Of a stretch of DNA of 33,715 bases, positions 1,799 to 28,549 are shown piece by piece. Location: the NCBI GenBank assembly GCA_032718475.1, contig JAUCBJ010008911.1:1-33715 (forward strand), written 5' to 3'. Within the stretch, counting starts at the first letter, position 1, and every line of letters begins with the position of its first letter. A model generated the notes under the pieces. The model was not told the origin of the DNA. It saw nothing but the letters and a program-made list of their open reading frames with translations, and searched no databases. Source of the DNA: Nemertoderma westbladi (lineage: Eukaryota; Animalia; Xenacoelomorpha). The translations under genes and the position numbers were made by a program.

Positions 1799-2436
1799 CT
1801 GCAGCATATTATATATAGTAACTAATTAATTAAATATAAATACGAAAAACCACCATGTACAAAGGGATGTCTATAGATGAACAAAACGAGCATGATGGAT
1901 CGCAAACCAGTTCGCGGGAACTGGACATGGTAAGTTTGACTGGAAGCCAAGAGAACATTATTAGGAGTATAGGAGGACACATGGCCCAGATTACTCGAAA
2001 TTTCGGAGAAGGTTTTCGCGTTTTGCGCGAATTAACTGCCCCGATGTCGAGATACGAGTTCTACACTTTACAGGTAAGGATAGAAAGTAGGGTACATGCC
2101 TCCATAGATAAACTTAAAGGTTTGAGTGTTTAGAGAGAGAGAGTTTAAAGAGTTGAGTGGCTACAACTTTATTCAAGTAAAGATAATTGAGAAGTTTGTA
2201 AGTGCAAGGGAAAGCCTCATTCATTTTAAGTCAGTTGTAGAATTGACTCAATGAGAAAAACTTGATCAACTGATGGGTGAGTCTGTTTCCGACACGTTGT
2301 TGCAACCCGAAGACGAATAAGAACTATACTGCCTGGACGGGAGGTTAGAGACGCTCACCAATTTTCTTCGTAGATGCGGCATACCGATCGAAGAACCGGA
2401 AGTCGAACCGCGAGGGACGATGGAAGTTCTAACTAC

Positions 2437-2456
2437 GGAAGGCTCGCGAGCCTTCC
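2437..2456 (+). repeat. 20-nt hairpin motif, copy 1 (inside a perfect 26-bp palindrome at 2434-2459)
   Basis: tac-ggaaggctcgcgagccttcc-gta; read as EGSRAF in the apparent gag frame. Confidence 0.9.
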
Positions 2457-2459
2457 GTA

Positions 2460-2850
2460 CATTTACAGTACAAATTAAACGCATTTGTAAAAACTGGACA
2501 GAATGTAAATTAGCGGAGAAATTCTATATTAAAAGAGACAGACCAACACTCAACACCCAATACCTAAAAGAACACGATGCGGGGTGGTGAGAATTAACTT
2601 TTATACAGTAGTTCCAGTTCCAATTATCTTGGGGGGGGGGGGGGGGGGGGTAGGTGCAACCTAGATACCTACCGGTAGCAGTATTTTTGTCATTGGTGCA
2701 GTAGTTGTCAGTAGTATTAATAGTTTCTAGTATCCTTACCGGTTAGACGCATAGTTGATTACTGCTTGTTAAAGGCCTGTTGGCTGAAATATAATAGCAT
2801 TAGTATTATTATATACCAATTACGTGATATAGACCACATTCAACTTATAT
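2460..2850 (+). mobile_element. Penelope-like element 3' fragment inserted in gag
   Basis: FTVQIKRICKNWTECKLAEKFYIKRDRPTLNTQ...* matches the GIY-YIG C-terminal E..I....P.LN pattern. It is followed by an AT-rich UTR with a degenerate hammerhead-like motif near 2763-2799. Boundaries are approximate. Confidence 0.7.
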
Positions 2851-3567
2851 AACTATGATTGCTCCTGTAACCTGGGCGATGAATTATCTTAGAAGAAAGC
2901 AGCATCCGAAGCTCATGCCGAGTTAAAGGCACGACAAATAAGAGCTCGTTTAACTGTACAGGAGGCGGAGTTAGCAGCGCAACAACAGGCGGCCAACCGA
3001 CGCAAAAGGGAGATGCAACTCCAATTCAAACTAAACCGTAGATCACGGGAGTTAGACATGGACGAGCTGGACATGACTTGTCTGCCCTGGATCGCTTGGA
3101 AATTCGACATCGCAAAATTCAGAAGCGAATAGAAGAATGAAGCGTAGGAGTGATCGAATGAGGAGAGGAATTCATTGAGGATTACTGTAAACGTTTTCCC
3201 CAGGTTATTCCTATGCTCAAACCTATGACTCCGATGGAACCGATTATAGTTGTAAAGACAAAGGAGATATTGTCTGTGTGTTGGACTCAAAGTAACAGGT
3301 TTGTTATGTTGGAGTCGATTCCGCAACCACGAGCGACTTCATCGCCGATTTTAGCAGGTAAGGTAAGTAGTCCACCTACCATAAGCCGTAGCTTACTTGT
3401 AGAAAGAGACGAACCCGCGTTTATGACAATTAAACATGTAAATAAGCCGTTACCAGTTAAAACTTTAACGTGCTGCGTGAACCCAGTCATTTATAGACCG
3501 ACAACGGCTAAACCGGAGCTCTTTATTCGACCTGATACACATTGTGGAACGAAACCTACAACTTCGT

Positions 3568-3679
3568 GGAAGGCTTGCGAGCCTACCGAACGACAATGGA
3601 CTAACTTTGTGGGTAGTACCCACAGGTTAGAACAGTACTTATCGAACATACGACTTTGGGGAAGGCTTGCGAGCCTACC
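3568..3679 (+). repeat. 20-nt hairpin motif, copies 2-3 (3568, 3660)
   Basis: ggaaggcttgcgagcctacc twice, 92 nt apart, both followed by gaacgac. Confidence 0.92.
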
Positions 3680-6209
3680 GAACGACGAAGAACCGTGGAT
3701 TCCAAAGAAAAGCGAATGCGGCCGACGAAATTTACACGCCGCACGTGAATTCGCCAACCACCGTATCCCGACAACAGCGACTCATCCAGTGATTCAGAGT
3801 CGACGGAATGGGAAATATTCCATACTGGAGTGGCAGCGGATTATAAACAAGAGGAGAGATCGACAAATCCATACATCGACAATCCTCCATGAGATACGCC
3901 CGCTCAGAAACCCACGTTGCAACCGGCCGAGGAGATTATCACTAGACAGCTCACCGAAGTAATGCGACCTGTAGCGGACCGACTGGCTCAGATCGAAGAG
4001 CGGCTCGAAGCTCCATCATCGGATCGATCACGGACCAGCATGGAATTGGAACGACCTAGACCACATTGACCACCATATAGAGAACCGGAGGCCAGTCAAA
4101 CTCCGAACCATCGAGTAGACGATCCCGTTAACCTTTCCTACCGACGAACAACGCGCGGACGGGAATGACTGGACGCTATTACCGAACAGGGACATGGACA
4201 GTTGGACTTAGTCAACGAGATTGCTAAGTTTGCAGCCAGACACGGATTACCGGCACAGCAACCGCCGAAGTTTTCTGGCAACACAAAACACTGGCGTACG
4301 CTGGTAGACTATGTAGAGTCCCAGATCGCTATGTGTGCCTCCACCTCGACGGAGAAGTTTAATTACTTGCTCCAAGTTCTATCTGGTGAGCCAAAAAGAT
4401 TAGCGGAGACCTCCATCGGTGTTCCGAATGCCTTTGAGTTGGCATACAACTGTTTGTTTTCCATATACGGTGGCAACGTAGCCATGGCTAAATCTATTAT
4501 AGAAGACCTCTGTAGAGTTGGACCTATTTCGAAACCAATCGATCTTCTACGACTCGCGGATGAGATAAAAAACGCTATAGGGACTTTACGGTCCATCGGT
4601 CAACTCGAGTATGCCAACATGCCGACAGTTCTAATTAGGATCATCGGCAGACTCCATCATCGGTTACGCCGAGAATGGCGACAGATAGAGTACCAGTATG
4701 AAGAGGCTGGCGGGCTACTGAAACTCACCGACGTTTACCAGTTGATCTCACGACGCGGGAGGCTGTGGTTGAGACCATGTCTAACTATACGGACCACCAC
4801 ATAGCGGCAGAAGGAATAGCTATTGTTGCACCGAATCGGACCAAGCAACTTCCGACGAACGCGAAAGCCGTGACCTATACAACCCCAACGGTCACTCCCA
4901 AGGTTCTGACGCCTATCGGCACCAAACAGCCACGACAACAGTTGCTGGCAGATTTTGTGGGATGCCCATACTGCGAGCGGAACGGCGGAAGATATAGCGG
5001 ACACAAGCTATGCACATGGATGTCGCGCTTTTAAAGATTTAGGAGTTGAGGAAAGATGACTCCAGATTCGCCCATTGGATTCTTGTTGGAGATGTACCAT
5101 GCCTGGACACGTCCGGAAGGACTGCCCAAAAGATGACACATGTCCTCTGTGCGGACGTAACCATGACGCATTAGTCCACACAATCCCTACTCAACACTCC
5201 AACTAAGCGCTTTCGACGAGAGTATCCCAATAAATTGGCTAGATGCGACGCGCTTTATAGAGAGTGCGCACCGCGCCAAATCCGTACTTTCTATACCGAT
5301 TGTATGGATCAATCAGGATCGTCGGACGAGGAAGAGGAGGAAGATGATACATTTTATGTGCATGCAGGAGAAGAACAACCATCTATAACATTCCTTACAT
5401 ACAACCAGTTGAAAGGGTTTAGCGTGATACCAATTAAGATCACAGGAACCTGAGGGAGCAAGCGTATATACGCTATCTTAGACTCTGCGTCGTTACATAG
5501 TTACCTTCACGAACAAGTAGCCGACATAGTTACGGACATGAGCCAAGGTAAGACTGCTCAGTATACAGTTAGTAGTATGCATGGTAAAAGGGCAATACCT
5601 GTGACTAGAGTAAAATTAACCTTAGATACTCTTCTTTCCAAAGCGGAACACATCAAGGAGGAATGCTCACTACTTCTGGTAAGGAACTTGACCTTTGCGG
5701 CCACAAAGGACTTTAGTAACCTGCTCGGTTCTGTGCCAGAGCAATCCCTGGAAGACCGTAAGTATTTCCGACATCTTGGAATACCGGAATGTCCTGTTAA
5801 TTATCGCTCAATTGTGATGTTAATTTGGAAGGGCCAGTTTAACTTGAATCAAGTATGGGAGACATGCCCATCTGTGATAGCAGCGGGCAACCCTTACGCA
5901 TATAGAACTCCCATAGGTTGGTATACTAGAGTGCCTGTGCATTCACTAGAGGTAAGTGATCAGAAGGACAACGTCTTGAGCACGTGTAGTTTGCTGACTA
6001 CCATGATAGCTAATTCTCCTTCACACTCCTGTGGTCCAATTGTACAGACAGTATTACGACAGAGTTACGTCGTTACCGACACTGACGTAACAGATCTGGA
6101 CGAGACCACACGGACCTCTAACATACAGCTACTTGCAGCGAAACAGGTTGTATCGACCACCGAAGACCAAAGGGTTGTTGCTGTGGATAACTCGATGAAC
6201 GAGGATTTT

Positions 6210-6385
6210 GGAAGGCTTGCGAGCCTACCGACAAATCTGAAGGTCATTGACCCTATTCACCAAGCTTCGACACCGGTCGCTGATCTTGGAAGGCTTGCGA
6301 GTCTACTGACAGATCAAAAGGTTGTCGAACCACCTCAAGATGTTTCGATGCTGACTAGTGACACCAGAAGGCTTGCGAGCCTACC
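6210..6385 (+). repeat. 20-nt hairpin motif, copies 4-6, in a 78-nt-period repeat between PR and RT
   Basis: Motif starts at 6210, 6288 and 6366 (GRLASLP, GRLASLL, RRLASLP). Confidence 0.92.
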
Positions 6386-8274
6386 AGCCACATTGACACT
6401 AGCCACCGCAGCGGACGATGATGTAGACAAGGACTGTGGCGCAGTGCAAGCAGCGCTTGGCCGACTGCTGACTGAGAAGACCATTAAGTGGTTGGAACAG
6501 GACTCAGCAGAACCCGGTAGTTACGAGACCGCTATGTCAGAACAGGAAAAACGGCCATTAAAGATTATGAAGGATACCATTCGCCAGACCGCGAATGGCC
6601 ACTACGAAGTTGGAATATTGTGGCGCCATGGACAACCTAAGCTCGTTAACAACTACCCACTTGCTTTGAGACTACTCAAGTCGATACGGCAGTGACTAGC
6701 GGCTGTTGCGTGATGAGACGGCCCATATGCAATACAACGCACAACTTCAGACGTATCTCCAAAAGGGATACGCCATTAGGATGACAAACCCTGAGGTAAC
6801 CACAGACCAAACATATTACCTGCCTTATCATTTTGTTCGACACCAAGACAAACCTGGCAAGGTGAGTGTAGTCAACGACTGCGCCGCACTTTACCAAGGG
6901 ATGTCTATGAATAGCAAATTGATGGACGGGCCGAATATGAATAATTACCTCATGGGAGTCCTAATGCGTTTCAGACAACGCAAGGTGGACTTCACCTGTG
7001 ACGTAGAGGCCATGTTTCGCCAGGTTAAAGCTTTGGAGCGGGACAGGGACAGTTTGAGGTTTCTTTGGTAACCGGACAGAAATTTAGATCTTCCGCCAGA
7101 AACTTACCAAATGCAGGTAAGAGTTTTCGGGGCCCGGACAGCCCACACTGCACCATGTATGCCCTAAAGCAGACTGCTTTAGACAGATGAGAACAATTTG
7201 ACCCAGAAGTAGTTCGGACAGTGGAGCGGGATTTTTACGTGGATGATGGCCTCAAGAGTTGTGACACTCTGGAGCGTGCCAACTCCAAGATTGTCTTGCC
7301 GAGGGCGGGTGAAATTTGCTTCCAATAAATCCGAACTAGTGAACTCATTTGATCAGATGGACCGTAGTGGAGGTGACCTAGATTTAGATCTAGTACCTCT
7401 ACCTACGACCAAGGTATTTGGACTTAGTTGGGACCCGAACACCGATAACTTCAGGGTGCGAGTAAGGTCCAATGACCAGATGAGACCTCTCACCAAGAGG
7501 ACTTGCTTATCGACCATGAGTCGACTGTATAACCCACTGTGTTTTATCAGTCCAGTGATCCTACATACTAGGATCATACTCCGCAGCATTTCACAAGCCG
7601 GACTGGAATGGGATGATCCCATCCCAGAAAAGCTAGCCGAACAATGGAGGGACTGAGAAGCCCAACTGACTCGGAGCTTCACAGCTTCAGCGATGCTAGT
7701 AAGGATGGGCTGGGGTTACTTTATACCTTAGACGACAAGTGACTTCGGACAGCTACGAAGTATCTCTCGTTACTTCGAGGGCAAAAACAATGCCATTGAA
7801 GTACATGACAGTGCCTCGTGGAGAGCTACAAGCCGGGACGATATCCACCGATATTGTCAGTCTAGTTCAACGTGAGCTGGAGGCTAACTTGAAGGTCACA
7901 TATTGGACTGATGCGATGTTAGTACTTTGGTATATAAATAACGACACATTTCAGTTCAAGACTTTCGTAGCCAACAGATGGGCTGAAATACTGGACAATA
8001 CTGGCTCAAATAAAATTGGCGTCACTGTCCAGGGAAACTGAACCCAGCTGACATCGCGTCACGGGGAATGTTACCCATTGACTTTTGTAAACCGGACAAT
8101 AAGTCCTTTTGGTTTAAAGGACCAGACTTCCTACAGTGACCATCGGACGAATAGCCACCGTTATTCGACGCACAACTAACACCATACCGGAGGGTGCCGA
8201 GATAAAAATCAACACTGTTGTCAAATCGAAAGCCAACGCCAAGGTCAAGAAGAAACAAGGATGGATGAAATCGA

Positions 8275-8712
8275 ATGTCCTGGACATTAGACCAGACATT
8301 ACGCCAGACGTCTCACCAGACACTCGACCAGACGTACTAACGAATCTTTCGCCGGATGTTCTGTGGGAGATTTCACCAGACGTTTCGCTGGATTGTTCAC
8401 CAGATGTCTCGCCAGATTATTCACCAAAAGCGACACCATATTGTTTTCCAGATTATACGCCAAATTGCTTAATGGAGCTCTCGACAGATTGTCTACCGGA
8501 CGTCTCGCCAGACTTTCTACCAGACATCTCGACAGACTGTCCACCAGACTTTAGACCAGACACTCTGACAGAAGCTACACCAGACTTTCTACCGGATGTA
8601 TGACAAAATATTTAGCCGGATGTTCTGTGATATGTTTCACCAGACGTCTCACCAGACTGTTCGCCGGACACCTCACCAGACTCTACCAGACATACCACTA
8701 GACGAACCACCG
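8275..8712 (+). repeat. 12-nt coding minisatellite, (x-P-D-x)n, in the RNase H-integrase linker
   Basis: Recurrent ccagac/ccggat at a 12-nt period: RPDI TPDV SPDT RPDV ... SPDF LPDI STDC PPDF RPDT. Confidence 0.9.
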
Positions 8713-9057
8713 GAAAGTAGCGACATGTGCTATGGCACTGCAATGATCCCATTGGAGCGGACTAGTACATACCCTTTAGGTATTACTAACTTACCTACTT
8801 TGACTTCCTTGAATTATGACAAAGGTGTGGCAACAGCGATCACACTCCGCTCAAGGAAAATACTTGACTTACAGCCCACGGCTAAACATGTGACCAAGGT
8901 TAGGAGGCATACAAGCCCACACGAACATACTGATACCGTAGAGTTGAAACCGTTACTACCAGTCAATTCACTGAGTGCAGACTGTAATGGTAAGACCGTG
9001 GAGATTGAAGTACTTAAGGACTCAGACAAACCCATTGTACAAAGGGAGACACTCACC

Positions 9058-9077
9058 GGAAGGCCCGCGGGCCTACC
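9058..9077 (+). repeat. 20-nt hairpin motif, copy 7 (compensatory variant)
   Basis: ggaaggcccgcgggcctacc; the loop-closing pair is C-G instead of T-A. Confidence 0.88.
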
Positions 9078-10600
9078 AAGTCCGAACAAGTATCCACACT
9101 TTGACTATACCTTACCTGACGACGTCACCAACACTTACATTGACAGGATAGTTAACCTAACTATATCATGGACGGACATGTGCCGCAAGTTAGCATGGCT
9201 CAAACGTTTGAGACAATATGCCAGATGCAAACACGACTTTCCAAGTAGACTTACCTTGGCTGAAATTGGTAGTTGTGAAGTTGATAATATTAAACATTAT
9301 CAATTGCGATATTTCGCACGAGAGTTCACAGCGATCAATCAGGGTAAACAGATCAAGTCTTCACCGATCTTGAGTTGGAGTCCAATAATTTACAAGGGCT
9401 TACTTTGTCATAAGTCCAGACTCCAAAACTTTGACTTCGCATTAGACTTTAGGTATCCTATCATCATACCGCAACACCATGAGTTACAGCGCGATATGAT
9501 ACTGGATGCACACGTACAACTCAAACACATAGGTAGACACCACTGTCTATCACACTTACACTCAAGGTTTGTACTGATAGGCCTAGTAAGGCACTGAGTT
9601 CAGTGACACGTAACTGTATTATTTGTAAGAAGGTGCACGCGAGGATAGGACACCAAGAGATGAGTGAACTACCATTAGCAAGGTTACAGGCCTTTAGACC
9701 CCCTTTCACTGAGACGGGGATAGACTGTTTTGGACCCATAATTGTGAAACGCAGAAGGGTACAGGTAAAACGCTGGGGATTAATCTTCACCTGCATGGCC
9801 AGCAGAGCTGTCCATATTGAACGTGTGACAGATTTAACCACCAACGCCTTTATCCTAGCATTATGGTGATTTATCGCTAGACGTGGATTGGTCAAATCCA
9901 TATATTGCGACCAAGGGACTAACTTTGTGGGTGCACGGAATGAAATCTCCAGAGCTTTAAGGAGATTGGACCAAAATCTAATTTCTCACGAACTACGTCC
10001 TCACAACATTGTCTGGAGCTTTAACACTTCTGACAGTCCGTGGAGAGGCGGAGTTTGGGAAAGATTGATTGGTTCAATCAAAACGGCTATGGCGAAAGTA
10101 ATACCGACGCAACGCATCTTAACAGACGACCAACTGACAACGTTGTTAATAGAAATCGAGGCGGTTCTGAATAACACATTGATCACAGACAACAACGACT
10201 CACATTTTGCCTTGACACCAGCGCACCTGCTTATGCAGGCGCCGACGACATTGTTGCCCACTTCGGTACCTGTCGATAGCGACGGTTATGGCAACAAAGC
10301 TTGGAAAATCACTCAATTATTAGCCAACAAATCTTGGGAAATATGGCAGAAGTACTATTTGCCCTCTATTTCGGCCAGAACCTCTTGGTATCTTAATACC
10401 TGATGTCTACAACAGGTGACCATGTTTTATTGGCTGAAACCAATTTGAAACAACGGTTTTGGCTGTCTGGAGTCATTTTGACCACACACCCGACATCTGG
10501 CGTAGTAAGGACAGTAACTGTACGGACAATCGATGGTCGTACCGATGATAGGCCTGTACAGTACAACGTCTCGTGCTCCTTGAGGAGACTAGAAACAAGA

Positions 10601-10958
10601 CTACTACTAGGATCGGCATGCTGCATTGCAGCTGCATTTTTAAGAATGCTGTGCCGGCTTGTCAACAAAATTGCACCGCCACAACTCCCTATCACCCATG
10701 ACATTTGCTAGATCATCCGCATCTTCAAGGCCAGTGTCCTTTAAGATGCGTCTCAAGAAAGTCATGGGCTGTCCACCATGCTTATTCACTCCATGAGGCT
10801 GCCAAAGTACAAGATTATGCACTGGCTGGTCCTCACGGCGAAAGCAATGTCCTGCAAAGCGGAGGCGATTTTGTTCTAGTGTCAAGCTTGGGGGAACCAA
10901 AGAGACACCTCCAATGTTATATAGTGTCTGGTTGGAGATGTGTGCATTGTACAAAGAG
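10601..10958 (-). mobile_element. 5'-truncated RTE-like LINE inserted in the end of pol
   Basis: RLRFAGHCFRREDQPV..LVLWQP..DRELWR C-terminus and a (TAG)n tail at 10601-10610. TSD aacaaga at 10594-10600 and 10959-10965. Nearly identical to the copy at 25078-26985. Confidence 0.9.
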
Positions 10959-11386
10959 AACAAGAACAGGAATGAAACAAGACAGGAGACTATAAATCTC
11001 CACCCAACATTTGTAAATAGAGATGTGGGACCCTTGATGGTCGCCACATAGCCTTACAGTATTCTAGTATTTTGTATTACTGTACATTTGTATTCCTCTT
11101 CACTGTAGATTGAAGACAGGGGTGGAATTCCATTGTCTTTATATGTGAACATGGAGGGTAGTACCCTTATGTATCACATAGGAACGGGATTGTGTGTACA
11201 GTAGGAATGGAATTCCACTTGGAACCCACAAATGAGACAATTTTTCAAAAATTTTAGATAAATCCATTCATTTGGATTTAGATTTAAGAAAAATGATTCT
11301 CCAGTGGATGGATTCTAGGATATGGAACCTAGGATATGGATATGGATCTAGGATGGAACCAAAATTGGGGAGGGACAAGAGCGGAT

Positions 11387-11406
11387 GGAAGGCTTGAGAG
11401 CCTACC
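11387..11406 (+). repeat. 20-nt hairpin motif, copy 8, in the non-coding pol-ORF3 spacer
   Basis: ggaaggcttgagagcctacc. Confidence 0.88.
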
Positions 11407-11521
11407 AATATATTTTTTTGGAAAATAAAATCGGCCTTGTTCTAAAGTCTTGTCTATTATTATATTTTAGTCTGATTATTTCTCGACTGCATTATTTTTT
11501 CTGGGAGTAGTTTAGGATTAA

Positions 11522-11744
11522 AAGGTGAGTATTTTAGTTATAGTTTATATTTTAGTTTTAGGTATATTAGTTTACCCAGAATTCGTTTTTTATCGGCACA
11601 TTTTTTTGTATTAGGAGCCAGTGCGAAATCACGCGGAACCCGAAGTCTTAGGCAAATGGGTAGGGGTTTTAGCGCAAAGTTGAGCTGAAGGCTGACAAAA
11701 CTGTAAGTCTCCTCACATCTAACCTCTGTTTGTGCTTCCTCTAG
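11522..11744 (+). promoter_or_regulatory. Candidate splice signals upstream of ORF3
   Basis: AAG|GTGAGT at 11525, CT|GTAAGT at 11703, branch-like CTAAC at 11719-11723, and a pyrimidine tract with TAG ending at 11744, 10 nt before ATG 11754. Confidence 0.5.
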
Positions 11745-11753
11745 TAGAACGTA

Positions 11754-14727
11754 ATGATACGTAACCATATATATGCGTATATAATGGCTGAGAGGATGTA
11801 TAAGGAGTTACGACAGGGATTTACGCTGGAGCAGGAGCACGAGGCGCCATTTAATCGATATGGAGCCAAGAACTTAAACGTGTTTATAGTTGAGAGTATG
11901 GCTAGAAGTACAGCCAAGCTCGCAAAGTCCAAGGCGGATCCAAACTTCACGTGACAGCGACTAGACGCCTATAACAAGAGAGCGGAGGAGTTACGTACGG
12001 AGTTCAATGCGTTGTACCCCTACGATGCGTTATGCGATGCCAGCGACGTTTGCGAGGACCCCGACACGGAGATACGCCGATTATATCACATGCTGCAATA
12101 TTTGACAGTGAGTGAACCCTTGCCTGTAGCTAGGGACGAATTTGATGGGATACATCTTTATAGACGTGCTCAAGGAGCGGATCCGGAAACTAAGGAAGCG
12201 TTCTCCATTTATAAACTGTTCTATAAATGTGGAGGATGTATGTGTATGCAAGATAACGCGATTCCTATGCTCTTGAACCCGGAGAACTGCGAGCCGATAT
12301 TAGTGCGTTGCCCAAACCACCAGAGTCTGCGTTACCAAGAAGGCAGATACCCTTTGACGAATCTGTACCACTCGTTTAAGATGAATGGACCGAACATGGG
12401 CGAGATTGTTGTTTATGAACCCAAATTAGTCGAACCAGACGTCTACAGTATGGTAATAGACGAGTCTAATAAGTCGACACAGGAGAAGAGGGAAGCTCTT
12501 AGCATATATAGGGCATACAAGGCGTACGAGAAATGCGAGATTGAGGAGTTTGGCGGAAGGCTCGCGAGCCTACCATTCTATTGGATATCCTACGATCAAA
12601 CCGAACCCAAGGAGATGACACCCGAGCTCTTCGATAGTATCTCCTTTGCTCAGCGTTTGTCGCAGAGACTGCAGATACCACACATCGAGATGACGCGAGA
12701 ATCTCAACCCCACCCTGCCAAGACGGTAGTGCCGGTCGCGAGGACAACTAACTTTCCTATTAGCATACCGACCCGAGAGGAGACGACCTACGAGATTCCC
12801 ATAGTTGAACACCCGGAGATCATTTCGAACCTGGATTTCCTCCTATCGGTAATGTTTGGCGATGTGTTAGAGGAAGCGGAGTTGCATAGAACAATAGTTC
12901 AAAAAATTGTACGCAACGTGAGTCCACATATTACTGACTTTAAGGAAGTTGATCGCGCGGGGACGGATATCGCACCTTGAATCCTTCGAGGGTATTTGGC
13001 AAAGATGATTCGATTATGGATCAGAGTCGGCACATTCGAAACCGACACCGACATCGCGACCAATTGGACGGGAAAACCTATTACCCTCGATGACGAAAAG
13101 TCTATCGGGAGGATTTGGAACCCTAGCGACAATTTACTCGACGATTGGGATGCGATGAGTCGATCTCTGCAGGAGAATGGATACATGTTTTACGATAATG
13201 AAGGAGGAAGCCATCAGCAGAGCCTCACTTCAAAGACCATACAAATTCGAGCACCAGACGGAGTGTTACACGTCTTCAGCCGACAGAGGAGCGATCGAAA
13301 GATGCCGATGCCGGAAGGAACGATGCAAAGATATGCTATGATAAAATGGATAATTAAATCCATGGACCTAGCTTGTAGCATAGAGGCTAGGATGTTGCCA
13401 AAGGCCGTGCGCGACGTTGTACTTGATAAGAGTATCGTCAAGATCAGATCCGGTATATGGGAGGACCTTATTAGTGATTTCGCTGGAATGCCCGAGGAGG
13501 AGGATCGGTTGCCTACACCTTACGTGGATACTAGACCATTGTTGCTTTGGGCCATCGAGCAAGGATATTTTCGAGAATATAACACGCTTAAAACTGGAAC
13601 GGGTTATATATCATATCTCATGTTTAGTTGGGATTATAAGGAGTGCAAGAGGAGCAAATACACAGACGTATACGGTGAGGGAGATACCCCTAACGTGAAC
13701 GAGTTTGAGTCACAGCTAAAGTGGCGAGGATGTGTATATTGGGCGATCACCTCACCTCCGCGGATAATCTTGCAATACTATTTGGCGATCGTATCATCGG
13801 TAAACGTGTGTTTCATCGCCGATGTAGTGTCTAGGACTTTAAAGCAATATCCGTTATGTCTCGGCGGAGGACACACAGTTTACGAGGGAGGAAGGACGCA
13901 TACTGATGTATTCCGCCAATTTCTCAAACCATTTTACAACACCGATGCCCACTGTGAAGTTTTCACGCAAGCGGGATTCAGCGTTTTTAGAGATGTTTAT
14001 CTCACCCATGCGGGAAGCCTAGTTGACAGACCATCGATGTTGACGTTAGTACCCTATGACGGGGAACGCCACGCGGAGATTAAAGGCCCAGAAGGATCTT
14101 GGAAGGATCCGAGGACCCGCGACAATCGACGTACCGTTGCGCCAACTCATAGAGATAGAGGAGAATCTTCCGAGGAAGACTTGAACCGAGATACTCGACC
14201 TAGAGAAGAGCGACGCCATGGTTTGTGTGCAACCCACGGAGACGAACATACCGACTGACCCCGATGATGAAGATTATCACGTGGATGGTAGCGCTCGCCC
14301 CATTGGAGATCTCATCTATGAGCGAGTTTGGTATCCTGCCAACACCATTTGTGACAGATGCGGGGCTACTGGCCATCACGCAAAGAAATGTGGAGCTAAA
14401 CATATATCTCTACCAGATTTAGTGTGCAACTGGTGTGGGGATCAATGGTCACACACTTTCTACACCTGCTGGCGCTTCGTAGCTCAATGCATGTATTGTA
14501 ACATCAAAGGTCATAGGGCGTCTGAATGCCAACTTAGGGACGTTCCCTATGAGCATATGTCGGTAAAGATCACCCGACAGCTATTTGACCATTGGGAGAA
14601 TTTAGCAGACGAGCATGTCTCGACGCAGCGATACGACGCAACGATATCGACGTAAACCCTCTCATTATGTAGAAGGAAGGATACGTGTCAGCTATGCCTC
14701 AATATTACGAACTTTTAGAGGTACTAG
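11754..14727 (+). pseudogene. BEL accessory ORF3, part 1: unknown protein with three CCHC-type zinc knuckles
   Basis: ORFs 11754-11954, 12012-12980 and 12996-14258 are in the same frame, separated by single TGA codons. A frameshift leads into CDRCGATGHHAKKC, CNWCGDQWSHTFYTC and CMYCNIKGHRASEC (14350-14529). Confidence 0.8.
12555..12574 (+). repeat. 20-nt hairpin motif, copy 9, inside ORF3
   Basis: ggaaggctcgcgagcctacc (GRLASLP). Confidence 0.9.
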
Positions 14728-17700
14728 TAGTGCTGCGAACTGAAACAATATTTGACTAGTTTCAGTTTCAGTTTCAGTTCCAGTTTCAGTTCGAATAAAC
14801 CTATTTATTTCAGTTCCAGTTGCAGTTCCAGTTTCAAAAAAAAAATAGTTTCAGTTTCAGTTCATGTTTCAGTTTGAATGAGGCTGTTTATTTAAGTTCC
14901 AGTTTCAGTTCCAGTTCCTGAAAAAAAATAGTTTCAGTTTCAATTCAAGTTTCATAACAATACTACGTAATAACAAGGCCTGCCGCTGTCATCCTATAGC
15001 AACCACAATACTGTATATATATTCAGTACTACCTGTATATATTTATATTTATGGGCCAGTGTTGAAAAATCCAGAATTATACGAATATTAATTATTATCC
15101 TACAATAACTGAATAATAATTATAGTAGTAGTAATTTTATTGACAGAATATAGGAATAATACCTATATAAACCACCGCAAAGCAATGCAGGTAATATTAA
15201 CATTCGCAATACCTTCCCAAAAGTTAATAATTACAAACTCCGCTGGGTGGAGCTGAAAACAGGCCTTTACTATACCGTATGTATAGTATCAAAGGCTGAA
15301 CAGAGGCCTACCAGTACTACAGAATAATATTCCAGAATATAATTATTTTAGAGCCAATCTCTGACCAACTCCATCACCAAGGGTTACTGCTTATTGCTTT
15401 TATCATAGGCTTCTCCCTGCATAGCTTACACTACACAACTTACAAATACTATATCGGGGATGGTTGAGCACGGTAATTCAGTCTTCTGCGTGCACGGCCT
15501 ACTTGCTAGTAACTTTGTATAAAGAGAGTTGACATTATAAGAATCGTTCTAGCTAAAACAACGTACCAGTGCAGTAGAGTAGCTTGGTTCTTTCAACATT
15601 TTTTTTACTTAATTATTACTAAGTGTTCGTAGTAGTTTGTTGTATGTTGAATTCTGAGCTGAAATGTTTAGGTTGGGTTGTCTGTCAATTATGACATACA
15701 TCGATACATGTTCACAATTTTCATCATATAATTAATGTAGAAGTAAACTACTTTTTATCCCCCCCTGAAATTGTTTGTTTGGCAAATTGGCACCCTACTG
15801 AATAATGTACTATTCTGGCTGCCTTCGCATTGCGTTCATAAATAAAATAATATTACAATGATTAGGCCTAAACAGTACATATACAGTACAAATGATTTGC
15901 ATCGTTTGCAGTGGCTTAATGTATTTTTTCCATTTCCGCAATGACTTCAACTAGCCAAGCCTGCACAACCGGCAGACAGCAGACATCAGCCATTCATTTA
16001 TTCTACAAGAGGGAAGGTGACGCTTTTCGTTGTAATTATGTGAATGATGATGATCAACAGTGTGAGTTTCAGTCAAAGTGTGCCAACGGTCCAAGTAATT
16101 TAAAAAAACATTTAGAGCGGCGTCATCCAATACTATATGAAAAATTTAAATCGGCTGAGAAAGATATATTAAGTATAAAAGAAGCAGAGGCAATAAAAAA
16201 ATCCAAACTTCAAGCTCAAACTGGTTCTTTAGATGATTATTTAACCGTAAAGAAGGCAAAAGTTTCAACTGGAGAAGGAGAATCTCTCGTTCCCATTTTC
16301 AATCAGCAGCATTATCGACAACGGCACTTTAATAAGTTGCTAGCTACGTTTGTTGCTGTGTCACCACGTGGAAGTTTGCACATATGTTTACGCAGAAAGA
16401 GTACGGGTTTCAAAAGATTATTTCATATGTTAGTGATGGGAAATTTGGCATACCACATCATCAAACTATTTACAATATCATTAAAAAACAATCTGACTTC
16501 ATAGAATCAACCATAAAGAAAGAGATTACAACTGTGTCTTCAAATACGAAGGATCCCGTGTTGCCACTTTGCCAAACAAATATCGATTGCTGGACCCGTA
16601 AAGGCTATAAGGGTTCCTTTATTGGTGAAACCATAAACTTCTATGACTTTAATAAGGAATGTGCCGTTCAGAGAACAATCGCAATAGATGAATTCGAATA
16701 TCCTCATACTAGCCAGCGAATTATTGATAAATACGCGGCAATTCATGAACAATATGGGATTAAACCAACTCAAGTGGCATTATCATTTACAGATAATGCT
16801 GCCAATATGGTGAAAGCATTTAACTTGTTAGACGACCGTGATACAGTGGCTGATCCTGCATACGGTTCATGTACTTATGGAGTTGTAATTAATTTTTTAT
16901 TTTATATTTAATTATTCATATTCATTCATAAAAATTACCCATAGGAATTGTTCACGAAGTACTTCACCCTCAGAAGTGGAGGGGGCGGGGCCGGGGGTTG
17001 GGTATATCTGAGGGGGATAAAATGAAATAAATGGCATCAAAAACACGGAAAATAAACACTATTTAAAATGAAGGCTAAAAAATTTTAAAACTAAAACCTT
17101 ATAAATTGCTAAAAGCAATTGAAAATAGTGAAAAGGTTATACTTTCCAATAATTTTTTTCTTGAATCGTTTCATTTGTTTAGTATATTATCTCAACGTAA
17201 GGGGCATTATATGAAATGCATCCTTATTCAGCGTGTTTTAATTAGTTATTATTCTAGAAAAAAACATACAGAATCTTTTAAAATCACAATATATTGAACT
17301 ACAATTGCATAAGTACATTATTTCCTTAGCATCTGAAAACGCACAAGGGGAAAATGAAGCAGATACTGCATTTGAACGTCTCATTAATGACTTAGCAACA
17401 TTGGATAACAACCTTCGCCACTACGGCGATCCTATACATTCCAAGAATTTAGCGATGAAATTATGTTTCAAGCCACAATATAAATCAGTGGGAAATTTAA
17501 TTGCTAGTGCTAGATCTCTTGTTAATACGATATCAAGATCCCCATCACTAAAACAGGCATGGGATCGCGTGTGCACTTTATCACTAGTTGGTGATGTTGC
17601 AACACGATTTGATTCGATTTTTTTACTGACATCTCGGTTAGAAAATACGAAAGTAGTGGCGGCATTACCAACATTTGTTATGGAGAATTCAATAACAACA

Positions 17701-18994
17701 AACCTTCTTCCTGGAACATACTTATGGGGTGAACTGGAGTCATTTAACCGTCTCATGGAGCCCGTCTATAATGCAACGTTAATCCTCAGTAAGGACCACT
17801 AATCCTCAGTAAGGACCACTTCAGTATATGTAACTTATTTCCAGTAATGATACTCTTGCTACCTCGTCACTTGGAGAAGGAAACACACCCACAATCAAGT
17901 TTTCCAAAACTTGCAAAAGCAATATTGGAGGACATTAAAAGACGTTTTTCATGGCTGCGAAATAACCCATATTTCCAACTTCTGACCTGTCTAGACCCAG
18001 GGTATAGCATAATATTTAGCAAGCCACCATTCTCATCCCACTTGGAGGAAATGACGGAGTTACTTGTAATTGAATATAAGACATGGGTGGCTGAGTCAAC
18101 TGACTCAATCAACAATGTAGAAGAGGCTCCAATTGCTCAAGATAATGGTCCAAGTTCAAGCGATTCAAAAACTGATGAATGGGATTATTTCTTTGATGAT
18201 CAGCCAGAATCGATACCACCAGTGTCTCAGGGTTCACAGGTTTACCAACAACCAACTGTGCATCCTATTCAGGGGCAGTTCACTGATTATCGTCAGGAAC
18301 ATCATCAATCTCACCCCCCAGCTATTAATATCAATGATTTGATCGCGCGGGCTGATGCACTGCATGTGTACTGGCGCAGCAAGCGTCACCAATGGCCTGA
18401 ATTAGCAACATTTGCACTCGCTCATTTGGCATTTTCTGGCGCTGGAATCGGTGTGGAGCGTTTGTTTTCTGGCGCTGCTATACAATCAGATGGGCGGCTT
18501 CGTTCAGTATCCAATACTGCACTCCGCCAGAGGACCCTAATTGCCTCAAACAAAAACCTTGTCGAACATATTGATTAAAGTTTTAACTTTTCAGAAATTC
18601 ACAACTTATCCTTGATTTAGTTTTATAGTTATATACTTAGTTTTACTTGTTGTTTATACTTTATGTAGTTTCCAAGTCAACAAAAACTGGTTTTGATAGA
18701 AGTGAAATATCTTTTGTTTTTTTTTATTCCCGGGGAGGGGGGGGGGGGGCAATATTGTAATATATGTTTACATTTATTTTCAATTTATTACTTTCAGTTT
18801 TCAATTTTGAGGAATTCAGTTCTAGTTCCAGTTCTAGTATTTCAATATATCATATTTCAGTTCTAGTTTCAGTTTAAGTTTAACAAAATTTTAAGTTTCA
18901 GTTCCAGTTTCAGTTCCAGTTCAGAAAAAATGCCAAAAACAATTTCAGTTCGATTTCAGTTCCAGTTCAGTTTCAGTTTCAGTTCGCAGCACTA
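14728..18994 (+). mobile_element. Full-length hAT DNA transposon (4267 bp) inserted in ORF3
   Basis: Perfect 19-bp TIR tagtgctgcgaactgaaac (14728-14746 and 18976-18994). 8-bp TSD ggtactag (14720-14727 and 18995-19002). (cagttt/cagttc)n subterminal arrays and a transposase gene. Confidence 0.96.
15941..18578 (+). pseudogene. hAT transposase with BED zinc finger and C-terminal dimerisation domain; probable intron at 16865-17329
   Basis: BED finger C..C..SNLKKHLERRHP, then DCWT, HTS, TDNAANMVKA, DVATRFDS, LDP and YW..WPELA..VERLFS. Frameshift near 16380 and a 20-bp tandem duplication at 17781-17820. Confidence 0.92.
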
Positions 18995-19002
18995 GGTACT
19001 AG

Positions 19003-19858
19003 ACATATTGACATTGGATAGTGGCTTCAAAGTCGTGCGGGATTATTTCCTACAGGTCCACCCGGATAATAAGAACACTTGGAACTTTCAAACCATGGTG
19101 AACAAGATTACCGCTGGAGAGTTCGATAAATTGCGAGTCGAACAGCGGAATCGGGGAGCCTGGCATTCGATAGCTTGGGCTTACAGGAGCGCATTTCATC
19201 ACAAACGTGTGACCTCATGTATCTTGGACGAGGTAGACGTCTTGCGTGAGACTGGCTTCAAGGCCACGCTGTGACTCGAAAGGATACGCCACCCTCAGGA
19301 AGACCCGCAGTTTCGTATTCTTAGAGCCCAGAAGGCCAGACAAAAGATTAAGAAAGTGGTGAATGTCGCCGAAAGGACAACGTCAAAGTCACAAATCTGG
19401 ATGACTCGGGGCACAGTTTCCCTTCCTAGAGAACCACGTGGGGGGCTGGATTTGCTTTACCCGAACCCATGAGGGTTCAGACAACGTCGGAGAGCGAGGT
19501 GTCGGCGGAAGGAACGGTCCCGCCCCTTAGTCTCCCTCCTAGCATTGTGGAAACTCACCCCGACCCGACTAAACGCATGATTGGGATCAGACGAGGATTG
19601 AGTGCCCAACGGATGTGCGAGACGCCAGTTGTTCCTTTTCCTAGCATTTTAGAACCGCAGACAGCTCGACAGCTCAGCACTGAGCCCGGTTCGATCTCGA
19701 CCACCACCCAGTCATCTTAGGGGGCGGGGACGAGCTTGTGCGACGAAGGATTAGAAGAGCGAGGTAGAGGAAGGAAGGCTTGCGAGCCTACCGTTGGAAT
19801 TGGAGTTGGAGAGCGAGATGGAGAAAGGAAGGCTTGCGAGCCTACCATTAGCGATTAG
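19003..19858 (+). pseudogene. BEL accessory ORF3, part 2 (continuation after the hAT insertion)
   Basis: Joining across the TSD gives MPQYYELLEVLD|ILTLDSGFKVVRDYF. The reading continues through TGA 19272 and ends in a low-complexity P/S/R-rich tail; the end is approximate. Confidence 0.7.
19773..19846 (+). repeat. 20-nt hairpin motif, copies 10-11 (19773, 19827)
   Basis: ggaaggcttgcgagcctacc twice, 54 nt apart, each preceded by gagcga-(N)-gga-aa. Confidence 0.92.
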
Positions 19859-20385
19859 CGCTCAGGAGAAGATATCTAGACCAGTAGGACGAACTTTTCA
19901 GCTCGTCAGGCGGACACTTTGGGACTTATTTGGAACTACTTTAGCATTATTACTTTGACTATATCAATCTTAACTAACTTGTAAAATTTGAATTATTTTG
20001 TAATATTATATTATGGAAACGTTTAAAATTATTTGCTTTAATTTGTTAATTTGCTTTATTTTGGATAACTGAAGCCCTTTTTTATATTTTATGCTCTAAA
20101 TTAGGTAGTAAATTTGTATTTTGTATTTGTATGTACGAAGGTTTTGTATTTACGCAGTACTTGCAATTTTGAGTATGCAACAGTGATTATTTTTATATTT
20201 TAGGCCCTACCCTAGATTTGAGAGATATTTTAGTCAATTATTAGTGTGTCTCGATTGGTGAAAACAGTCTTACTTACTGTTTTCATGGAGCGGTGTTGGA
20301 TTATTTCACTGTTAAATAGCAATTTACAGTACCACATAAAAAACTTTCTAAATCCGACATATTTTGACTCAATTCGTAGTAATGT

Positions 20386-20617
20386 GGGGGAAGGTGGGGT
20401 AGCTCAGTTGGTTGAGCGCTGGGCCTACAATATATTGGTTGTAGGTTCAGCCCCACCAGGGTCCTCTCAGCCTTTCATCCACTGGGGTCGATAAAATGAG
20501 TACCAGTTAAATAACTATTATATAACTACTGCCCACCCCTACCCTCGGGTAGCAGCTATCGAAAGAGGAGCCTTCGGGTCGCCTCCGGCCTCGACCGACT
20601 GTTTGCTTTTTGCTTTG
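20386..20617 (+). mobile_element. tRNA-derived SINE inserted in the LTR
   Basis: A box tagctcagttgg, B-box-like ggttcagccc, central ctcagcctttcatcc...gataaaatgagtacc segment and (tttgc)n tail. 11-bp TSD cgtagtaatgt at 20375-20385 and 20618-20628. Confidence 0.9.
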
Positions 20618-20677
20618 CGTAGTAATGTAATATGCCTATTTCCTATTAGTAGATATAAGTTCACTAGTGATTATATT

Positions 20678-20747
20678 GGCGCAGTGGTCAGATGGGTTAA
20701 GGCGTTGGTTCATGGGTTCGAATCCCAGTCGGGAAATTTGTATTTTT
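20678..20747 (+). ncRNA. tRNA-like Pol III cassette lacking an anticodon arm, in the LTR U3 region
   Basis: A box tggtcagatgg, B box ggttcgaatccc and a T5 run at 20743-20747. Confidence 0.45.
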
Positions 20748-20783
20748 GGGCTATCAATTTTCGGTTTCATTTAATTAGGTAAG

Positions 20784-20927
20784 CCAATGAGGTGCGTACA
20801 ACACATGGAACGATGAGTTGGGCCAATCATAGGGCATTTAATAACTTATTGGTCCAATGTGCAGCCATGGAATGTTGTCGAATGTTCTAGTTAATTCCAT
20901 GCCTAGGATTTGCTATATAAGGGGCGG
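20784..20927 (+). promoter_or_regulatory. LTR Pol II promoter
   Basis: CCAAT at 20784, 20823 and 20854; TATATAA at 20914-20920 followed by ggggcgg. Confidence 0.6.
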
Positions 20928-20944
20928 TTTGCTCTTCGGTTATC

Positions 20945-20983
20945 ACACACACTTATAACACACACTTATAACACTCACTTATA
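20945..20983 (+). repeat. 3 x 13-bp tandem repeat just downstream of the TATA box
   Basis: acacacacttata acacacacttata acactcacttata. Confidence 0.85.
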
Positions 20984-21804
20984 CCTAATCGTATACTTGT
21001 CTCATATCTTGTTAACCTTTCTTTAGTTACATTTGTTAAGTTTCTTGTTGAAACTTATGTAAATTTGGTTGATAAACTCTTTTGTAAATTACTCTAAATA
21101 TACTGTAAACTTTGAACATGTATATTCCCCTTTGTCCACCATTGGGACAGCCAAGCATTGGGAGGATGGCTGCCTAGACCATTAGGCCGTCAGCAACGCA
21201 GGGAAGATGTCCACAACACGCTAGCGCCCACATTAGGTTAACCCGCGCACCCCCTTCGCCCCTTCGAAATACTCCACCTGCCATGCAACGCCCGATTCCG
21301 AGGAAGGTAAGACTTTGTTTGACGCCCTTGCCCGCAATAAGACCTTAGATCAGGGTAAAGCGTGACGCCGTCCTGGGACGCAGTAAAATTTAGGATTAAA
21401 TATTTCAGATTCAGACAGAAGCAAAAACCCGGATTAACCTGTATCTCCTACAGGTGTCAGCTATTGCTGTTCGTTAGTACGCGCAAGTTCACTTTAGGTG
21501 CGGATAGCACATACTCTATAATTTGGTGATTTGCAGTACTGACAGTTTGGTACCGGTTCACTTTGTAGCCTATATAGTTTACCCCCCCCCCCCCCCCCCC
21601 CTGTCTGAGTCCAAAATATTTGATCAGGCGAGAGGCAGCTTTCTGCTACTGGCACATGTTTGGCCTAGGGAGGTTTACTAACATCCTACCGCGCCCTTGC
21701 CACATACTGATAGGAATTTACTGCTAACCACCGCAGTAACAAAGTTCTAAAATCAAATTTGTATACCAGATCAGCTACGTACGGTAGTAATTAACACCTA
21801 TTAT

Positions 21805-24326: not shown

Positions 24327-25174
24327 TACTTTGCGGGGAAAATAACCAGCTAATTCCGCAAAAGCCTTTACACAGGCAGAGGCAGGTAGTACCATGTTAC
24401 TGCAATAATGGTAGCAGGAATTCTGACCTGACAATAAGAGTAATCAGAGTAACTTAAACCCACATAAATAATTCCCTTGAGTGAATTCTATCCGCGTAGG
24501 AGAAATTAAATATAAAAATGTTAATTGTGCGATCATTTTAGAAATTTTGATCTTATGAAAAGATAATGAAAGGAGTCATAGTGAAATTCTCATATTAAAG
24601 CAACGTTTCAAAACCAATCCGGATAATTCTAAAGTGCCGGGGGAAAATAAGTTAACACAGGCCAAGAATTGGAGCCGCACCTAACTAATATATCGTGGAC
24701 ACTGATAAAACACAAGATATACTGTATAATAATAATTTTGATGAAAAATATGAAGCATTAGTTGCATCATTAACTGAAATATGACTCATCTCATTGCACT
24801 GATTCAAATGAATAGCCTTGAATTATTATATAGGAGCTACGGCAATTTTGATATTTTGTATCTCTTAGAATTTTCCCAGGAGTCTTTTTCCCAAGTTTTG
24901 TTTTGAATCCGTTACTGTAAAATGATGATCCATTACCAAATTTAATATAACATTCCCTTGCAATAAATAGACCTATAAACTGATCTGAAATTTTCAAAAC
25001 CAAGTTTCATATCGTCACTACTGTAATCTTTGACAAGTTTTTCTGATAAATGAAAAATCAGGTATCCCGAATGCCAACTAGCTAGGATCGGCATGCTGCA
25101 TTGCAGCTGCATTTTTAAAATGCTGTGCCGGCCTGTCGACAAAATTGCACCGCCACAACTCCCTATCACCCATG

Positions 25175-28489: not shown

Positions 28490-28549
28490 TAATGTATGTT
28501 TATATTTGTCTGTGATTCTTGGCATTTTTCAAGTTTTTTGTATTTTTGT

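What the first reader, a model, noticed from the sequence alone, without database searches (positions are those of the whole stretch)
2437..19846. Eleven same-strand copies of a conserved 20-nt tetraloop hairpin dispersed through the BEL element
Seen: GGAAGGCT-TGCG-AGCCTACC or variants at 2437, 3568, 3660, 6210, 6288, 6366, 9058, 11387, 12555, 19773 and 19827. All are on the sense strand, and I found none in the nested TEs or outside the element. It folds as a GG/CC pair of base pairs, an A.A mismatch (10 of 11 copies), a 5-bp stem and a 4-nt loop. Loops are UGCG x7, CGCG x3 and UGAG x1, all fitting the known YNMG stable-tetraloop class. Copy 9058 has a compensatory U-A to C-G closing pair, and the two changes in copy 6288 give G.U pairs. 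The motif is read as EGSRAF, KACEPT and GRLASLP (three frames) and also sits in non-coding spacer, so the constraint is on nucleotides rather than protein. Copies lie outside the recognisable catalytic cores. Inference: a multivalent cis-acting RNA signal for packaging, export, localisation or dimerisation (the CGCG loop is self-complementary). I know of no such motif described for BEL/Pao, but could not search.
Basis: partly seen in the sequence, partly recalled or inferred. Interest (0 to 1): 0.88.

Follow-up and report, generated by a model that had tools for sequence, protein, structure and literature searches.

The report
Repeated palindromic hairpin in large retrotransposon
A large, decayed BEL/Pao jumping gene carries eleven near-identical copies of a 20-letter self-complementary motif, at seven sites and better conserved than the sequence around them, which likely act as repeated hairpin tags on its RNA that one of its own proteins would recognise, a role that is untested.

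Summary
All 11 copies lie at the stated coordinates (chance 0.01), inside a roughly 14-kb multicopy BEL/Pao element with extra ORFs, one ending in three CCHC knuckles. None lie in the nested transposons or elsewhere in the window. They collapse to 7 sites because of local 54-, 78- and 92-nt duplications. Within those duplicates the motif is kept far better than its flanks (75/80 vs 91/162; third codon positions 16/18 vs 22/49), so the constraint is on nucleotides. Covariation is one event and not significant. Eight of 10 ORF copies share one frame. The loop is closed by U-A in 10 of 11, not the C-G of the most stable YNMG loop. Best reading (0.45): dispersed sense-RNA hairpins docking an element-encoded nucleocapsid-type protein, for packaging or RNP assembly. 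Rivals: a VANC-like DNA site (0.2), RNA-RNA self-annealing (0.15), neutral homogenisation, a peptide motif. Genome-wide confinement could not be tested. I found no description in print. The scan's notes report comparable hairpin arrays, with other sequences, in other large LTR elements.

The parts
2437..2456 (.). motif copy, site 1; perfect palindrome extending to 2434-2459; inside an upstream ORF remnant (longest open frame reads EGSRAF)
3568..3587 (+). motif copy, site 2a (92-nt duplicated pair, gag N-terminal linker)
3660..3679 (+). motif copy, site 2b
6210..6229 (+). motif copy, site 3a (78-nt tandem units in the protease-RT linker)
6288..6307 (+). motif copy, site 3b; two C>T changes give G.U pairs on the sense strand only
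6366..6385 (+). motif copy, site 3c; its stem-breaking first-base change is private to this genomic copy
9058..9077 (+). motif copy, site 4 (RNase H-integrase linker); closing pair C-G instead of U-A, both changes non-synonymous
11387..11406 (+). motif copy, site 5, in the non-coding spacer between pol and the extra ORFs; UGAG loop
12555..12574 (+). motif copy, site 6, in the first extra ORF
19773..19792 (+). motif copy, site 7a (54-nt duplicated pair near the 3' end of the last ORF remnant)
19827..19846 (+). motif copy, site 7b
1855..2590 (+). upstream ORF remnants; multicopy, but membership of the element is inferred
2893..10600 (+). broken BEL/Pao gag-pol: DUF1759 4169-4801; Gag knuckle region about 5021-5230; protease region about 5400-5945; RT-RNase H (Peptidase_A17) about 6470-8190; 12-nt repeat insertion 8283-8714; integrase about 9000-10400; several stops and frame changes
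11955..14258 (+). two extra ORFs (341 and 425 aa open segments) with no Pfam family or homologue found
14185..14655 (+). extra-ORF segment with three CCHC-type zinc knuckles (14350, 14425, 14488); candidate reader of the motif
   Evidence: (zf-CCHC E 0.024, under the curated cut-off)
18996..19955 (+). continuation of the element after the nested hAT; ORF remnants

Best explanation
The 20-nt motif is a nucleotide-level signal repeated at seven sites, 1.1-2.9 kb apart, along a large BEL/Pao retrotransposon, and it likely folds on the element's sense RNA into a small hairpin that an element-encoded zinc-knuckle protein would bind at many sites to select and compact the long RNA for packaging. Shown: the copies, their placement in linkers and spacer, their spread by local tandem duplication, their conservation above flanks including third codon positions, and the knuckle-bearing ORFs. 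Predicted by folding software: the hairpin (5-bp stem, A.A mismatch, tetraloop ending in G).
For: Within the four duplicated pairs the motif matches at 75 of 80 positions and the flanks at 91 of 162 (flank extents chosen by me, pairs not fully independent). In the three in-frame pairs third positions match 16 of 18 vs 22 of 49, p = 0.001. Conservation stops sharply at the 20-nt edges. One copy lies in a spacer with 13-18 stops per frame, and the 9058 swap changes two amino acids while keeping the pair. Of the 6 stem changes, 5 keep or add pairing on the sense strand. The sixth (6366) is private: 94-100% of laid depth in 3 runs reads the usual base, and the fourth run has no cover there. Copy 6288 folds on the sense strand (stem probability 0.71) and not on the antisense (0.01). 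The A.A mismatch and loop G12 are kept although synonymous alternatives would pair as well or better, which suggests a recognised shape rather than maximal pairing. The element is about 13.8 kb without LTRs or nested insertions against a BEL/Pao median of 7.4 kb, and encodes extra CCHC knuckles. Dispersed stem-loop packaging signals are established in ssRNA viruses (PMC6281560), and scattered packaging sites are expected but undefined in Ty1/Ty3 (PMC4974528).
Against: Covariation is one pair in 7 distinct sequences: 135 of 500 shuffles reach it, and simulated chances are 0.08 for a compensatory pair and 0.07 for 4 of 5 changes keeping pairs. The motif folds almost equally well on the other strand and as single-stranded DNA. 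When long-range pairing is allowed, 6 of 11 copies are predicted to pair with a neighbouring copy instead of folding locally. Near-identity in sequence, not just structure, fits a DNA-binding site equally well. Five of 6 ORF sites share one frame (p = 0.053), which leaves room for a peptide role. None of 150 distant BEL proteins carries the peptide in any frame, so no cross-family conservation is shown. No expression, binding or genome-wide data.
Confidence: 0.45

Rival explanations
1. The motif is a double-stranded DNA site. An element-encoded dimeric protein (one of the orphan extra ORFs) would bind the palindrome at many places along the integrated element to keep it unsilenced or active, as VANC proteins do for VANDAL transposons.
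For: VANC motifs are family-specific, arrayed in one orientation and multiplied by tandem repeat formation (PMC5735166, passages), the same pattern as here. The strict sequence identity and two-fold symmetry suit a protein dimer, and a symmetric swap such as 9058 also fits a palindromic site. The element has orphan ORFs.
Against: VANC motifs are 9-bp, non-palindromic and mainly non-coding, whereas 10 of 11 copies here are in ORF-like sequence. The asymmetries (T opposite G, C>T opposite G) are those tolerated by G.U pairing on the sense strand only: sense duplexes are more stable than antisense in 52 of 55 pairs, equal in 3 (copies share descent, so these are not independent). No DNA-binding domain was found beyond a weak Copper-fist hit on a knuckle (E 0.019).
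Confidence: 0.2
2. The copies act by RNA-RNA pairing. Each is self-complementary through the loop (with G.U), so any copy could anneal to any other as an 18-bp duplex with two A.A mismatches. This would dimerise, cross-link or condense the long RNA, chaperoned by nucleocapsid, as a multiplied version of the Ty1 PAL and retroviral DIS palindromes.
For: The predicted homoduplex is -30.7 kcal/mol on the sense strand vs -22.9 on the antisense, and the hairpin -7.6. Neighbouring copies are predicted to cross-pair with probability 0.61-1.0 (sense) vs 0.0-0.83 (antisense) in 4 of 4 pairs. The two bases seen at loop position 1 are the two best for self-pairing. The Ty1 PAL1-PAL2 hairpin converts to an extended duplex (PMC6844567, passages), and palindromes drive homotypic RNA clustering in silico (PMC13079385, first third of text).
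Against: A synonymous change at loop position 4 would give an equally strong, fully Watson-Crick centre and is seen in 0 of 11 copies, and the A.A mismatch is kept in 10 of 11. Multiple copies in one molecule would satisfy each other intramolecularly. A closed tetraloop is a poor kissing nucleus (general knowledge). The UGAG copy weakens the centre.
Confidence: 0.15
3. The motif has no function. A hairpin-forming palindrome would pause reverse transcriptase and promote template switching, so it is duplicated and homogenised among sites faster than its flanks drift, and it survives only where a stop-free, linker-like peptide is tolerated.
For: Six of the seven clustered copies sit in recognisable local duplications, and the 92-nt pair shares only short flanks. 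Copy 2437 has been perfected and extended to 26 bp, as quasi-palindrome correction would do (mechanism recalled). The compensatory swap could arise in one such event. The motif is open in all three sense frames.
Against: Conversion tracts ending exactly at the same 20-nt edges at 7 sites with unrelated flanks are hard to get without selection. Palindrome correction should erase the A.A and loop asymmetries, yet they persist. No target-site duplications flank the copies (sequence).
Confidence: 0.12
4. The selected unit is partly the peptide GRLASLP, a short linear motif in disordered linkers. It fits the R-x-x-S-x-P kinase / 14-3-3 docking consensus (recalled, from no call), so the DNA repeat would be a by-product or a dual code.
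For: 8 of 10 ORF copies, and 5 of 6 ORF sites, use this frame. Five of the 11 single-base differences from the common form are synonymous in it. First and second positions are also kept above flanks, 39 of 42 vs 51 of 92.
Against: Identical codons for G, R, A and L at 5 sites have a joint chance of about 2e-10 under the element's codon usage if sites were independent (shared descent not modelled). A peptide role does not explain the palindrome, the spacer copy, or 9058, which loses the serine but keeps the pairing. The peptide is absent from 150 of 150 BEL relatives.
Confidence: 0.08

Closest known systems
Multiple dispersed packaging signals of ssRNA viruses (MS2 TR-like stem-loops; PMC6281560, abstract and section 5 read)
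   Same: Many small stem-loops of about 20 nt with a tetraloop and an unpaired A feature, dispersed through coding sequence on the genomic strand.
   Different: Viral signals share only a sparse recognition motif and vary in sequence, and MS2 has one TR. Here the whole 20-mer is near-identical and palindromic, the host element is an LTR retrotransposon, and no binding is shown.
Ty1 PAL1/PAL2 and retroviral DIS palindromes (PMC6844567, PMC7357161, passages)
   Same: A self-complementary hairpin able to switch to an extended intermolecular duplex, in an LTR retroelement RNA.
   Different: Those are a few 6-7-nt palindromes near the 5' end. This is one 14-nt core (20 nt with mismatches) repeated at 7 sites over 13 kb.
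VANC target motifs of Arabidopsis VANDAL transposons (PMC5735166, passages)
   Same: A family-specific short motif in many same-orientation copies, multiplied by tandem duplication, in an element with extra ORFs.
   Different: Those are DNA transposons with 9-bp non-palindromic motifs, mainly non-coding, and proven DNA binding. None of that is shown here.
YNMG tetraloops, e.g. the enterovirus oriL domain d loop bound by 3C (PMC2346598, PMC5633025, passages)
   Same: All 11 loops fit YNMG; UGCG is a common oriL loop; a less stable YNMG loop is the one that binds protein in coxsackievirus.
   Different: The closing pair here is U-A in 10 of 11, not the C-G of the most stable member, and the fold is untested.
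BEL/Pao LTR retrotransposons (PMC3118150, passages and file S9)
   Same: gag-protease-RT-RNase H-integrase order, DUF1759, Peptidase_A17, and 25-40% identity to BEL polyproteins.
   Different: About twice the median length, with orphan extra ORFs ending in three knuckles. The survey's main text has no occurrence of 'hairpin', 'stem-loop' or 'motif'.

Membership tests
BEL/Pao LTR retrotransposon (host element) | BEL-type Gag (DUF1759) and RNase H region (Peptidase_A17); order PR-RT-RH-IN | tested here: met
BEL/Pao LTR retrotransposon (host element) | Paired LTRs with TG..CA ends, PBS, PPT | tested here: inconclusive
   19956-21600 has no second copy in the window; a promoter-like multicopy stretch from about 20627 may be the 3' LTR; no 5' LTR in view
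Dispersed packaging signals | Several copies of a shared stem-loop motif along the genomic strand | tested here: met
   (fold predicted, not probed)
Dispersed packaging signals | Structure kept by covariation beyond chance | tested here: inconclusive
   one compensatory pair; 135 of 500 shuffles reach it; p about 0.08
Dispersed packaging signals | Specific binding by capsid or nucleocapsid protein, and an effect on assembly | not testable with these tools
   no RNA-protein assay or model available
Dispersed packaging signals | Confined to the element's RNA rather than genome-wide | not testable with these tools
   no genome held; within the window 11 of 11 are in or next to the element
Extra-stable c(YNMG)g tetraloop | Loop fits YNMG | tested here: met
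   11 of 11 (definition in PMC2346598)
Extra-stable c(YNMG)g tetraloop | C-G closing pair | tested here: not met
   U-A in 10 of 11 copies; C-G only at 9058
Retroviral / Ty1 dimerisation palindrome | Self-complementary; can form an extended duplex | tested here: met
   predicted only
Retroviral / Ty1 dimerisation palindrome | Located in the 5' leader or gag start, with dimerisation shown | tested here: not met
   dispersed over 13 kb; dimerisation not assayed
VANC-type anti-silencing target | Same-orientation motif multiplied by tandem duplication | tested here: met
VANC-type anti-silencing target | Mainly non-coding; bound as DNA by an element-encoded protein | tested here: inconclusive
   1 of 11 copies is clearly non-coding; the extra ORFs are unassigned; binding not testable
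Known Rfam RNA family | Match to a covariance model | tested here: not met
   0 matches over the element at E up to 1; the single hit in the window lies at 25205
Miniature mobile insertion | Target-site duplications; both orientations; present in unrelated DNA | tested here: not met
   no flanking duplications and one orientation in the window; genome-wide not tested

The most novel reading that the evidence does not exclude
A large BEL/Pao lineage has evolved a family-specific RNA barcode. One 20-nt switchable palindrome is written every 1-3 kb through its coding sequence, read as a hairpin by its own extra triple-knuckle protein and then zipped copy-to-copy to compact and dimerise an oversize genome. 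This would be a distributed self-recognition system not described for LTR retrotransposons, and possibly a general solution among giant LTR elements.
Probability: 0.2. Interest if true: 0.85.

Novelty: new variant of a known kind. Interest (0 to 1): 0.6.

Why it matters
How LTR retrotransposons pick out their own RNA for packaging is open even for Ty1/Ty3, where scattered sites are suspected but undefined (PMC4974528). An exactly repeated, family-specific 20-mer next to a candidate reader ORF makes that question directly testable with short oligonucleotides. If the DNA reading is right instead, it would be a VANC-like anti-silencing system in an animal-type retrotransposon.

Tried and rejected
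No whole genome is held, so confinement to the family was not tested. Motif scans of public collections gave only isolated single sites: 1 viral locus, 15 metagenome loci and 2 prokaryote loci. In the 16 of these 18 loci that I checked there was no second copy and no tblastx similarity to the window; I read them as chance. Searches for related DNA with the integrase found nothing in viral contigs and could not run on genome contigs. Protein searches with the first extra ORF, the protease-linker segment and the knuckle segment found 0 relatives at E up to 0.001; the integrase-proximal segment found only distant BEL proteins, at most 37% identical. ESM Atlas hits for the two extra ORFs shared too few features to count. 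Single-sequence folds had pLDDT 35 and 31, so no fold search was run. Sequencing runs: no RNA holder listed. Rfam and ARAGORN found nothing on the element. A broader array of varied hairpins was not found: 34 GC-rich hairpin entries vs 17.7 +/- 3.7 in 30 shuffles, but 11 of the 34 are the motif itself. A possible twelfth, decayed site at about 14101 was suggested by one contig joint in run X4. It scores no better than three other background places, and the joint may be a rearrangement, so it is not counted. The nucleotide set of the BEL/Pao survey (S1 zip) could not be read (50 characters), so known BEL families were not screened; its protein files held no GRLASLP. Ten paper searches listed no description of such a motif in BEL/Pao, and the exact-string search gave 0 papers.
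Full report
Observation. All 11 copies are at the stated coordinates, within 3 mismatches of the copy at 3568. The best other place in the window is 6 mismatches away. A degenerate pattern expects 0.01 matches by chance, and 0 of 100 shuffles reach the observed count. Loop counts (7 UGCG, 3 CGCG, 1 UGAG), the A.A mismatch (10 of 11), the swap at 9058 and the G.U changes at 6288 are as described. Copy 2437 is part of a perfect 26-bp palindrome and has no orientation. The copies reduce to 7 sites, because 3568/3660, 6210/6288/6366 and 19773/19827 are local duplications of 92, 78 and 54 nt. With nested insertions discounted, the sites are 1.1-2.9 kb apart.

The element. Pfam gives DUF1759 and Peptidase_A17. 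tblastn with the 32 longest of 150 distant BEL proteins maps Gag, protease, RT-RNase H and integrase in BEL order between about 4200 and 10400, with several stops and frame changes. Motif sites are covered by 0-5 HSPs against up to 39 in the cores, so they lie in linkers. After pol come an RTE-like fragment, a stop-rich spacer, two orphan ORFs and a segment with three CCHC knuckles. These are followed by a nested hAT with an 8-bp duplication and further ORF remnants to 19955. Laid contigs of 4 DNA runs (3 studies) give, in run X1, summed depths of about 6,700-43,500 over the element's bins, apart from the RTE and SINE peaks and the bins shared with the hAT, against 52-96 inside the hAT. The tool warns this is no copy number, but the family is plainly multicopy on both sides of the hAT, and one contig joins 10381 to 11115. 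No contig spans the whole, so the unity of the 5' ORF, gag-pol and 3' ORFs is inferred. No paired LTRs are in view. The length without LTRs and insertions is about 13.8 kb, against a median of 7.4 kb and a maximum of 22.8 kb for BEL/Pao (PMC3118150 file S9).

Level of constraint. The duplications give an internal clock. The motif matches at 75 of 80 positions and the flanks at 91 of 162. In the three in-frame pairs third positions match 16 of 18 vs 22 of 49 (p = 0.001), and first plus second positions 39 of 42 vs 51 of 92. I chose the flank extents, and two pairs share a copy. Column conservation drops to background immediately outside the 20 nt. A peptide alone does not explain identical codons (joint 2e-10 if independent), the spacer copy, or the non-synonymous pair-keeping swap at 9058. 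None of the 150 BEL proteins has the peptide in any frame. Selection and homogenisation cannot be fully separated from one genomic copy.

RNA or DNA. The hairpin is the predicted fold of each distinct copy. With pairing limited to 40 nt, 8 of 11 have sense stem probability above 0.9, and 6288, 11387 and 19773 have 0.71, 0.27 and 0.64. The antisense strand folds about as well except at 6288 (0.01) and 6366 (0.67), and better at 11387 and 19773. Five of six stem changes keep or add sense pairing. The one that breaks it (6366) is private to this copy, since 94-100% of laid depth in three runs reads the usual base (only 40 of 2,499 differences were displayed). Formal covariation is not significant: 135 of 500 shuffles reach it, and simulated chances are 0.07-0.08. 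A per-site view of family variation at the other copies was not obtained, so whether the 6288, 9058 and 11387 variants are family states or post-insertion decay is open. One joint in run X1 (6235 to 11412, 21 letters on the short side) may mean another copy has the common loop at 11387, or a deletion. One orientation is no proof of RNA, since VANC DNA motifs are also co-oriented and spread by tandem duplication (PMC5735166).

The predicted homoduplex is -30.7 vs -22.9 kcal/mol antisense and -7.6 for the hairpin. Sense beats antisense in 52 of 55 copy pairs, with 3 ties. Neighbouring copies are predicted to pair with each other. Against pure annealing, a synonymous alternative at the last loop base that would pair as well is seen in 0 of 11 copies, and the A.A mismatch is retained. 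Invariant loop G and A.A look more like features a protein reads. The loops fit YNMG, but the closing pair is U-A in 10 of 11, whereas the most stable member is C-G closed; a labile YNMG loop is the protein-binding one in coxsackievirus (PMC2346598; PMC5633025).

Mechanism. I commit, at 0.45, to dispersed sense-RNA hairpins read by an element-encoded knuckle protein for selective packaging or RNP assembly of an oversize RNA. The rivals are a VANC-like DNA site (0.2), copy-to-copy annealing (0.15, compatible with the best reading), neutral pause-and-convert spread (0.12) and a peptide motif (0.08; the R-x-x-S-x-P resemblance is recalled). Shown: copies, placement, duplication, conservation, knuckles. 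Predicted: folds. Inferred: strand of action, reader and outcome.

Comparison and novelty. It works most like the dispersed packaging signals of ssRNA viruses (PMC6281560, abstract and section 5) but is not shown to be one. It resembles the Ty1 PAL and retroviral DIS palindromes in chemistry but not in number or position (PMC6844567, PMC7357161, passages; PMC13079385, first third). The Ty1/Ty3 review says scattered packaging sites are likely but undefined (PMC4974528, passages). Passages of a review of giant elements name packaging capacity as a size limit and showed no such motif (PMC6431247). Ten searches (listings only, apart from the papers named) found no description for BEL/Pao, and the exact strings occur in 0 papers. 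The library lacks most subscription journals, and the BEL nucleotide supplement was unreadable. The scan's own notes list 8 hairpin-array findings in other LTR-type or unspecified retrotransposons, with different and mostly covarying sequences. They gave me the lead to PMC6281560, are unchecked and are not counted as support. None matches this sequence or BEL/Pao.

Verdict. A real, non-random, nucleotide-level repeat that I could not find described; the function is untested and the RNA-versus-DNA question is leaning but unresolved. New variant of a known kind, interest 0.6.

Noticed in passing
window 14728-18994: Nested hAT-like DNA transposon with terminal inverted repeats, an 8-bp target-site duplication (14720-14727 / 18995-19002) and subterminal AGTTTC arrays; interior depth is only 50-100, so low-copy.
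   Followed up: partly
window 10603-about 10952 (also 1149-1571, 25077-25174, 26414-27046, 30486-31323): Fragments of a very high-copy RTE/LINE-like family, one inserted just after the integrase.
   Followed up: partly
window 8283-8714: In-frame 12-nt (PD-rich) repeat array forming much of a roughly 0.9-kb insertion between RNase H and integrase that canonical BEL proteins lack.
   Followed up: no
window 11500-11790, 2587-2892, 21307-21453: Consensus-like splice donors (2587, 11525, 11703, 21307) with candidate acceptors suggest spliced leaders for gag and for the extra ORFs.
   Followed up: no
window 2631-2652 and 21580-21601: A G20 run and a C20 run face each other as a 22-bp inverted repeat around most of the element; probably host homopolymers, unexplained.
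   Followed up: no
window 20376-20626: tRNA-headed SINE-like insertion with an 11-bp flanking duplication; its central part resembles the Nin domain (recalled, not tested). It is followed by a multicopy CCAAT/TATA promoter-like stretch, perhaps the 3' LTR.
   Followed up: partly
window 21792-23853, 25953-26350, 431-1144: Long foldback or MITE-like inverted repeats.
   Followed up: no
window 27077-28489 and 28493-29269: Mutator-like transposase remnant (PF20700) and a Penelope-like RT/GIY-YIG remnant (family recalled; no Pfam hit).
   Followed up: no
window about 14101: One contig of run X4 joins this place to motif-like sequence, hinting at gain or loss of a site among family copies, or at a rearrangement; not distinguishable from background in the window.
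   Followed up: partly
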